The position numbers and the translations under genes are program-made. The notes below the pieces were generated by a model, which did no database searches, was not told where the DNA came from, and saw nothing but the letters and a program-made list of their open reading frames with translations. Below are positions 36,694-36,756 of a stretch of 64,000 nt of DNA, one piece after another. Numbering within the stretch: the stretch's first letter is position 1; each line of letters begins with the position of its first letter. Source of the DNA: the human T2T-CHM13v2.0 reference genome, Homo sapiens; assembly GCF_009914755.1 (NCBI RefSeq), contig NC_060926.1, one strand, 5' to 3'.

Positions 36694-36756
36694 CTTCTGT
36701 GTGAGGCGTAATTACCAGTCACATGACCACTCCCATCACACCCTGGAGTTGGACAT
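36694..36756 (-). CDS. MYT1L: Putative alternative (cassette) 63-nt MYT1L exon: (T)[20 protein letters not shown](S), N-terminal part of an additional CCHHC zinc finger
   Basis: gtttttgtttggtggcag|ATGTCCAACTCCAGGGTGTGATGGGAGTGGTCATGTGACTGGTAATTACGCCTCACACAGAAG|gtgtga; phase 2-2, no stops, full finger consensus. Confidence 0.85.

What the first reader, a model, noticed from the sequence alone, without database searches (positions are those of the whole stretch)
36694..36756. Hidden 63-nt cassette exon that restores a seventh zinc finger to MYT1L
Seen: between the 122-nt and 69-nt exons, the minus strand carries an AG..GT-bounded, stop-free, phase-2/phase-2 exon translating [21 protein letters not shown]. 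Spliced in, the junctions read [37 protein letters not shown], a complete CCHHC finger with all ligands. Known (from memory): canonical MYT1L has 6 fingers (1+2+3) and reads [15 protein letters not shown], whereas paralogs MYT1 and ST18 have four C-terminal fingers. Inference: the ancestral finger was not lost but became a normally skipped exon. Inclusion (+21 aa) would give two tandem C-terminal finger pairs and could change DNA-binding affinity or spacing. The intact consensus suggests purifying selection. It may already exist as a minor annotated isoform, which I cannot check. If it is absent from clinical transcripts, variants here in this neurodevelopmental disease gene would be labelled deep-intronic.
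Basis: partly seen in the sequence, partly recalled or inferred. Interest (0 to 1): 0.92.

Follow-up and report, generated by a model that had tools for sequence, protein, structure and literature searches.

The report
Annotated alternative zinc-finger exon of MYT1L
This is a real 63-base alternative exon of the human brain gene MYT1L that completes a seventh zinc finger and is conserved from sharks to humans, but the reference gene annotation already lists it, so it is not hidden.

Summary
On the minus strand, window 36694-36756 is a 63-nt exon bounded by AG and GT. It is stop-free in the MYT1L frame, with a phase-2 intron on each side. Its 20 whole codons match Pfam zf-C2HC above the curated cut-off. 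They are 19/20 identical to each finger of the solved MYT1 F4F5 double finger, 2mf8.

"Hidden" is wrong. The gene table attached to the finding lists 36694-36756 as an exon of non-selected RefSeq MYT1L transcripts.

Public protein collections hold 91 MYT1L clusters with the cassette and 93 without, among 208 listed. The 21 inserted residues are identical to human in 47 of the 91. These come from marsupials, birds, reptiles, lungfish, ray-finned fishes and sharks.

MYT1 and ST18 carry a 63-nt exon of the same phase at the same place. Nearly all DNA differences from the cassette are synonymous.

It is therefore an ancient, protein-constrained alternative exon that switches MYT1L between 1+2+3 and 1+2+4 fingers. 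How often human neurons include it could not be measured here. No paper found in eight library searches discusses a seven-finger MYT1L. Verdict: already known as annotation, understudied as biology.

The parts
36694..36756 (-). 63-nt alternative (cassette) exon of MYT1L. It encodes 21 residues (one split codon at each end) that carry the first four conserved C/H positions of a CCHHC (zf-C2HC) finger.
   Evidence: sequence, frame; PF01530, 46 bits; genome scan hit; gene table attached to the finding (exon of other RefSeq transcripts).
36757..36779 (-). 3' splice site region: a T/G-rich tract ending in cag.
   Evidence: 14 of 20 pyrimidines at -23..-4, within the 12-18 range of the 7 other MYT1L exons in the window; 4 of 8 at -11..-4, at the low end.
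36686..36693 (-). 5' splice site gtgtgact after exon-final AAG.
   Evidence: 7 of 9 matches to MAG|GTRAGT (consensus recalled, not from a call); the 7 other exons score 6-8.
37123..37244 (-). Upstream 122-nt exon of the selected transcript, ending two bases into the Thr codon of the motif KKDLIT.
   Evidence: Gene table.
36174..36242 (-). Downstream 69-nt exon of the selected transcript. It supplies the last Cys of the finger (motif LSGCP) and the 18-residue linker to the next finger.
   Evidence: Gene table. The next finger exon lies just outside the window at G000:C2:1859508-1859573.

Best explanation
Window 36694-36756 (minus strand) is a genuine, already annotated alternative cassette exon of MYT1L. 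It is the MYT1L counterpart of the 63-nt exon that encodes the first finger of the four-finger C-terminal cluster in the paralogues MYT1 and ST18. In this gene family an intron splits most finger-coding places after the second His-Arg. The cassette carries C-x4-C-x4-H-x7-H. The constitutive 69-nt exon behind it carries the final x5-C and the linker. Inclusion (+21 residues, in frame) completes a finger 44 residues ahead of the next one. That recreates a double finger like MYT1 F4F5 and gives a 1+2+4 protein. Skipping leaves an orphan last-Cys stub and gives the familiar 1+2+3, six-finger protein. Shown here: exon anatomy, family membership, annotation, paralogue co-linearity and deep amino-acid conservation. 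Inferred: that the extra finger binds zinc and DNA, changes DNA-binding valency or spacing, and is included in a regulated way.
For: Anatomy and frame.
Family: PF01530 at 46 bits against a 32.3 cut-off; 19/20 identity to both fingers of PDB 2mf8.
Double finger: a cassette-containing MYT1L (P0091, whose 85 residues around the cassette equal the human joined translation) aligns to 2mf8 without gaps over 86 residues, E 3.7e-47, 72/86 identical by my count of the printed alignment. Finger starts are 44 residues apart in 2mf8 (15 and 59) and in P0070 (850 and 894).
Annotation: the gene table attached to the finding lists 36694-36756 as an exon of other RefSeq transcripts.
Paralogues: one search finds 7 finger-coding places at MYT1L (1+2+4 with the cassette), 7 at MYT1 (1+2+4) and 6 at ST18 (2+4). 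The six exons compared are all 63 nt with AG/GT bounds and the same phase.
Selection: cassette against ST18 gives 14/60 base differences and 0/20 residue differences; against MYT1 ZF4, 17/60 and 1/20; against the next MYT1L finger, 19/60 and 1/20. That last figure argues against recent gene conversion.
Orthologues: of 208 listed proteins, 91 MYT1L clusters include the cassette, 93 skip it, 9 are MYT1-like and 15 could not be scored. 47 of the 91 have all 21 residues identical to human, from marsupials, afrotherians, squirrels, birds, lizards, turtle, lungfish, bichir, gar, teleosts, sharks and rays. 40 differ only by Gly to Arg, and 4 are singletons (names). 41 clusters carry seven fingers by pattern. 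Both forms are modelled within single species, for example Dromiciops, Sciurus, Phoca, Halichoerus and Manis.
Against: No expression data were available, so human inclusion level, tissue and stage are unknown.
The selected RefSeq transcript skips the exon. So do all 6 mouse entries and the rat cluster listed.
Most cassette-bearing proteins are automatic gene models, which include an exon only when it is intact. The second search also ranks many-fingered proteins first. The 91:93 ratio is therefore not a frequency, and lineages that lost the exon are under-seen.
One murid model (P0030, Apodemus) carries a 17-residue insert at this junction. It resembles the other two reading frames of the human exon, which suggests a frame-breaking change there.
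The conserved Gly of the motif is Arg throughout the listed Laurasiatheria and in a catshark, and Glu in Anolis. This finger tolerates changes that the family profile disfavours.
No primate cassette-bearing protein was among the 208 listed.
Zinc and DNA binding of this finger were not tested.
Confidence: 0.9

Rival explanations
1. Relic exon in humans. The sequence is still intact but is included only as rare splicing noise, and the seven-finger protein has no role in people.
For: The selected transcript skips it (gene table). The field's model has six fingers (passages; canonical isoform of 1186 residues). Possible decay in a murid (P0030). No paper on a seven-finger MYT1L in eight searches.
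Against: The human exon is 21/21 identical to marsupial, bird, reptile, lungfish and shark proteins. Both lineages of each pair must have kept it, and a neutral 63 nt would not stay unchanged over such spans (inference from general substitution rates). The splice sites are no weaker than those of neighbouring constitutive exons by crude measures.
Confidence: 0.08
2. The cassette form is a major or even predominant form in some cell types, stages or lineages. On this reading 'normally skipped' is an artefact of a model built on rodent cDNAs.
For: The six-finger layout was defined on rat cDNA (review passage). The cassette form is modelled in all major jawed-vertebrate groups listed. Large cassette-bearing clusters exist, such as P0124 with 74 members and P0169 and P0155 with 79 each. 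A mouse islet study reports a Myt1l cassette exon with inclusion 0.746 against 0.984, but its text and the one supplement held do not say which exon.
Against: The human selected transcript and the human partial protein listed (P0002) skip it (gene table). Cluster sizes and isoform numbers say nothing about abundance.
Confidence: 0.25
3. The conservation reflects something other than coding, such as gene conversion from neighbouring finger exons or an overlapping regulatory element or RNA.
For: The family has many near-identical finger exons that could act as conversion donors.
Against: The cassette differs from every other human finger exon compared at 14-19 of 60 bases while keeping 19-20 of 20 residues. 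The DNA has drifted and the protein has not. There is no Rfam match. The RefSeq enhancers in the gene table lie elsewhere (14862-15485, 24306-24806).
Confidence: 0.02

Closest known systems
MYT1 finger 4 exon and the MYT1 F4F5 double finger (PDB 2mf8)
   Same: 63-nt exon with the same intron phases and the same place as first of four C-terminal fingers. 19/20 residues identical. A cassette-bearing MYT1L aligns without gaps over 86 residues, with the same 44-residue finger spacing. 2mf8 is described as MYT1 fingers 4 and 5 and was used as the template for a DNA-bound model in PMC5597252 (passage).
   Different: All 9 MYT1-like proteins listed include the finger; whether MYT1 ever skips it was not examined. 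Val replaces Ile at one position. The intron behind the MYT1 exon is a little over 100 nt, against 451 nt in MYT1L.
ST18 third finger exon (first of its four C-terminal fingers)
   Same: 63 nt, same phase; 20/20 residues identical to the cassette with 14/60 base differences.
   Different: ST18 shows no N-terminal finger place in the scan (2+4). Its splicing was not examined.
Standard six-finger MYT1L (isoform 1, 1186 residues; selected transcript NM_001303052.2)
   Same: Same gene, with all other exons in the window shared (gene table).
   Different: It lacks the 21 residues. It keeps only the last-Cys stub and linker, so it has three C-terminal fingers rather than four.
Transcription factors whose alternative splicing changes zinc-finger number or spacing (Ikaros, WT1 +/-KTS; recalled, no call)
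   Same: An in-frame alternative exon or splice site changes the DNA-binding module while the rest of the protein stays the same.
   Different: Those are C2H2 fingers with characterised isoform functions. Here the finger is CCHHC and no functional comparison of isoforms was found.

Membership tests
CCHHC / zf-C2HC finger (Pfam PF01530; MYT1/NZF family) | Ligand spacing C-x4-C-x4-H-x7-H-x5-C | tested here: met
   present in the joined translation with the cassette. The first four positions come from the cassette and the last Cys from the 69-nt exon.
CCHHC / zf-C2HC finger (Pfam PF01530; MYT1/NZF family) | Profile score above the curated cut-off | tested here: met
   46 bits against 32.3 on profile positions 2-21 of 29; 44.5 bits in the genome scan.
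CCHHC / zf-C2HC finger (Pfam PF01530; MYT1/NZF family) | Zinc-dependent fold and DNA binding | not testable with these tools
   Only likeness to solved fingers: 19/20 to 2mf8, 2jx1 and 2jyd; 72/86 over the double finger.
Alternative cassette exon | Canonical AG and GT bounds, length a multiple of three, no stop in frame | tested here: met
Alternative cassette exon | Transcripts with and without the exon exist | tested here: met
   Human: the gene table attached to the finding (the selected transcript skips it, other transcripts include it). Other species: both forms in single species among predicted proteins.
Alternative cassette exon | Junction reads and measured inclusion level | not testable with these tools
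   No RNA-seq access. Literature searches gave no value for this exon.
Counterpart of MYT1 ZF4 and ST18 ZF3 exon | Same order in the finger cluster, same exon length and intron phases | tested here: met

The most novel reading that the evidence does not exclude
The seven-finger form is a functionally distinct, regulated MYT1L isoform kept by selection from sharks to humans. It carries a second MYT1-F4F5-like double finger that changes site choice or affinity. The field's six-finger model, built on rat and mouse cDNAs, missed it, possibly because murid rodents have damaged the exon. Disease variants in these 63 bases would then be overlooked when only the selected transcript is used.
Probability: 0.4. 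Interest if true: 0.5.

Novelty: already known. Interest (0 to 1): 0.3.

Why it matters
MYT1L is a neurodevelopmental disease gene and a reprogramming factor, and it is usually treated as a six-finger protein (review passages). The exon is not new. Three points are worth passing on:

- The annotated seventh finger is as conserved as the constitutive ones.
- It would rebuild the double-finger unit known from MYT1.
- No paper found in eight searches of the held library discusses it.

Variant pipelines that use only the selected transcript would label changes here intronic. Mouse-based constructs and models may lack the isoform altogether if the murid exon is indeed damaged.

Tried and rejected
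- Eight literature searches found no paper on a seven-finger MYT1L or on this exon.
- Passages read in PMC11864812, PMC11339655 and PMC10575775 concern other matters: PHF21A partners, gene activation, and a truncated mutant protein.
- The preprint 10.1101/2024.11.28.625692 mentions MYT1L once, in a methods note on domain calls. Its supplements, which may list MYT1L isoforms by finger count, were not opened.
- PMC8395343 lists a mouse Myt1l cassette exon event. The text and the one supplement held do not identify the exon.
- The MYT1 double-finger paper PMC3853269 is not held.
- Weak splice sites as the reason for skipping: not supported by crude counts. No proper splice-site model was on hand.
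- An RNA gene or other feature at the site: none found.
- Recent gene conversion: rejected.
- Mouse, rat and primate genomic DNA could not be fetched, so the suspected murid damage rests on one predicted protein.

Full report
**What is there.** Read on the minus strand, the window shows a T/G-rich tract ending in cag, then 63 bases (36756 down to 36694), then gtgtgact. I joined the exons of the selected transcript by coordinate in a script. Exactly one frame stayed open. Adding the 63 bases between the 122-nt exon (37123-37244) and the 69-nt exon (36174-36242) kept that frame open and inserted 21 residues. The other frames carry 6 to 16 stops. Both flanking introns are phase 2. The 20 whole codons (P0001) read [20 protein letters not shown].

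**More than chance.**
- Those 20 residues alone match Pfam zf-C2HC at E 5.3e-12, 46 bits against a curated cut-off of 32.3.
- They are 19/20 identical to each of the two fingers in PDB 2mf8, the MYT1 double finger.
- A six-frame scan of the whole assembly with the family profile finds this exact place at 44.5 bits.
- Nothing else explains the site. No Rfam family reaches threshold in 35000-38500, and no other notable open frame overlaps it.

**It is not hidden.** The gene table attached to the finding (RefSeq annotation of T2T-CHM13) lists 36694-36756 among exons of other transcripts of MYT1L. The selected transcript NM_001303052.2 skips it. The table does not say how many of the 33 transcripts carry it, or whether they are curated or predicted.

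**Place in the gene family.**
- The genome scan finds seven finger-coding places in the MYT1L locus. One is N-terminal, two are central and four are C-terminal, the first of the four being the cassette.
- MYT1 on contig 20 has the same 1+2+4 layout. ST18 on contig 8 has 2+4.
- In all three genes the first two C-terminal fingers each start in a 63-nt exon with AG and GT bounds and the same phase. The last Cys of the finger lies in the next exon.
- The central finger in exon 61655-61745 is split at the same point.
- Skipping the cassette therefore removes the first four conserved C/H positions. It leaves the motif LSGCP and the linker as an orphan stub, which is what the six-finger protein contains.

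**Selection.** Against the ST18 counterpart the cassette differs at 14 of 60 bases and 0 of 20 residues. Against MYT1 finger 4 the figures are 17 of 60 and 1 of 20. Against the next MYT1L finger exon they are 19 of 60 and 1 of 20. The DNA has drifted while the protein has not. That points to protein-level constraint and argues against recent gene conversion.

**Orthologues.** I made two searches of the large protein collection. One used the neighbouring 79-residue exon as query. The other used the 85 residues around the cassette in a marsupial isoform. Each listed only its best 120 hits, out of 395 and 1932 respectively, giving 208 distinct proteins.

| Class among the 208 | Number |
|---|---|
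| MYT1L clusters with the cassette | 91 |
| MYT1L clusters skipping it (one aberrant) | 93 |
| MYT1-like, all with the finger | 9 |
| Could not be scored | 15 |

| Cassette residues among the 91 | Number |
|---|---|
| All 21 identical to human | 47 |
| Single Gly-to-Arg change | 40 |
| Singletons | 4 |

- The 47 identical clusters come from marsupials, tenrec, elephant, squirrels, birds, lizards, a turtle, lungfish, bichir, gar, several teleosts, sharks and rays (names).
- The Gly-to-Arg change occurs in carnivores, bats, whales, deer, rhinoceros and pangolin, and separately in a catshark.
- Forty-one clusters show seven fingers by pattern. Fifty-eight skip-form clusters show six.
- Several species have both forms modelled.

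There are caveats. Most of these are automatic gene models, which include the exon only where it is intact. The second search ranks many-fingered proteins first. The counts therefore show breadth, not frequency.

**Evidence pointing the other way.**
- All six mouse entries and the rat cluster skip the exon.
- One Apodemus model (P0030) has a 17-residue insert at the junction that resembles the two non-finger frames of the human exon. I read this as a sign of a frame-breaking change in that murid. It rests on one predicted protein.
- No primate cassette-bearing protein was among the 208 listed. For humans the evidence is the RefSeq table and the intact sequence.

**How it most likely works.** With the cassette, the protein aligns to the solved MYT1 F4F5 double finger over 86 residues without a gap (E 3.7e-47; 72 of 86 identical by my count). 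Finger starts are 44 residues apart in both. PMC5597252 describes 2mf8 as MYT1 fingers 4 and 5 and uses it as the template for a DNA-bound model (passage). My inference is that inclusion turns the first C-terminal finger of the standard protein into the second half of a double finger, and so changes the number and spacing of DNA contacts. Zinc binding, DNA binding and regulation of inclusion are not shown. By crude counts the splice sites are not weaker than those of neighbouring exons, so skipping is not explained by the sites alone.

**What is in print.**
- The 2022 review PMC9307810 describes six fingers (1+2+3), defined on rat cDNA. The words "isoform" and "splic" occur nowhere in its text (passages and counts).
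- PMC5597252 reports variants on the 1186-residue isoform 1 (passages).
- Eight full-text searches found no paper on a seven-finger MYT1L or on this exon.
- Subscription papers and most supplements are outside that library, so this is absence in the held library only.

**Verdict.** The exon is already annotated and widely modelled, so the novelty claim fails. What remains open, and modestly interesting, is how much the seven-finger isoform is used in human neurons and what it does.

Noticed in passing
window 30072-35129, minus strand (acceptor at 35129): This alternative terminal exon, listed in the gene table, reads on from the 69-nt exon for 21 residues and then stops. It matches the tail of the human partial protein P0002 and resembles mouse 'isoform 4' P0015. 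That form lacks the three standard C-terminal fingers. In some whale models (P0021, P0037) it is combined with the cassette, which is then the only C-terminal finger.
   Followed up: partly
proteins P0021-P0147 (Laurasiatheria), P0155 (catshark), P0177 (Anolis): The Gly of the CPTPGC motif in the cassette finger is Arg in all 39 listed laurasiatherian clusters and, independently, in a catshark. It is Glu in Anolis. All ligand positions are kept.
   Followed up: partly
protein P0030 (Apodemus speciosus), junction after KKDLIT: A 17-residue insert resembles the non-finger reading frames of the human exon. This suggests a frame-breaking change in the murid exon. All listed mouse and rat proteins skip the exon.
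   Followed up: partly
window 37118, 37026, 36559 (minus strand): Three GCATG cores, each within AGCATGC, lie in the two short introns (366 and 451 nt) flanking the cassette. One sits directly after the donor of the 122-nt exon and one about 135 nt downstream of the cassette. GCAUG is the core of the RBFOX site (recalled). No enrichment test was done.
   Followed up: no
L005/L024 (G000:C17:32655443-32655654): This stretch on contig 17 is 84-90% identical at protein level to the last two MYT1L fingers, but has an in-frame TAG. It looks like a MYT1L-derived pseudogene fragment.
   Followed up: partly
PMC8395343, Table 1: A mouse islet study lists a Myt1l cassette exon with inclusion 0.746 against 0.984 between strains. 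Neither the text nor the one supplement held says which exon.
   Followed up: partly
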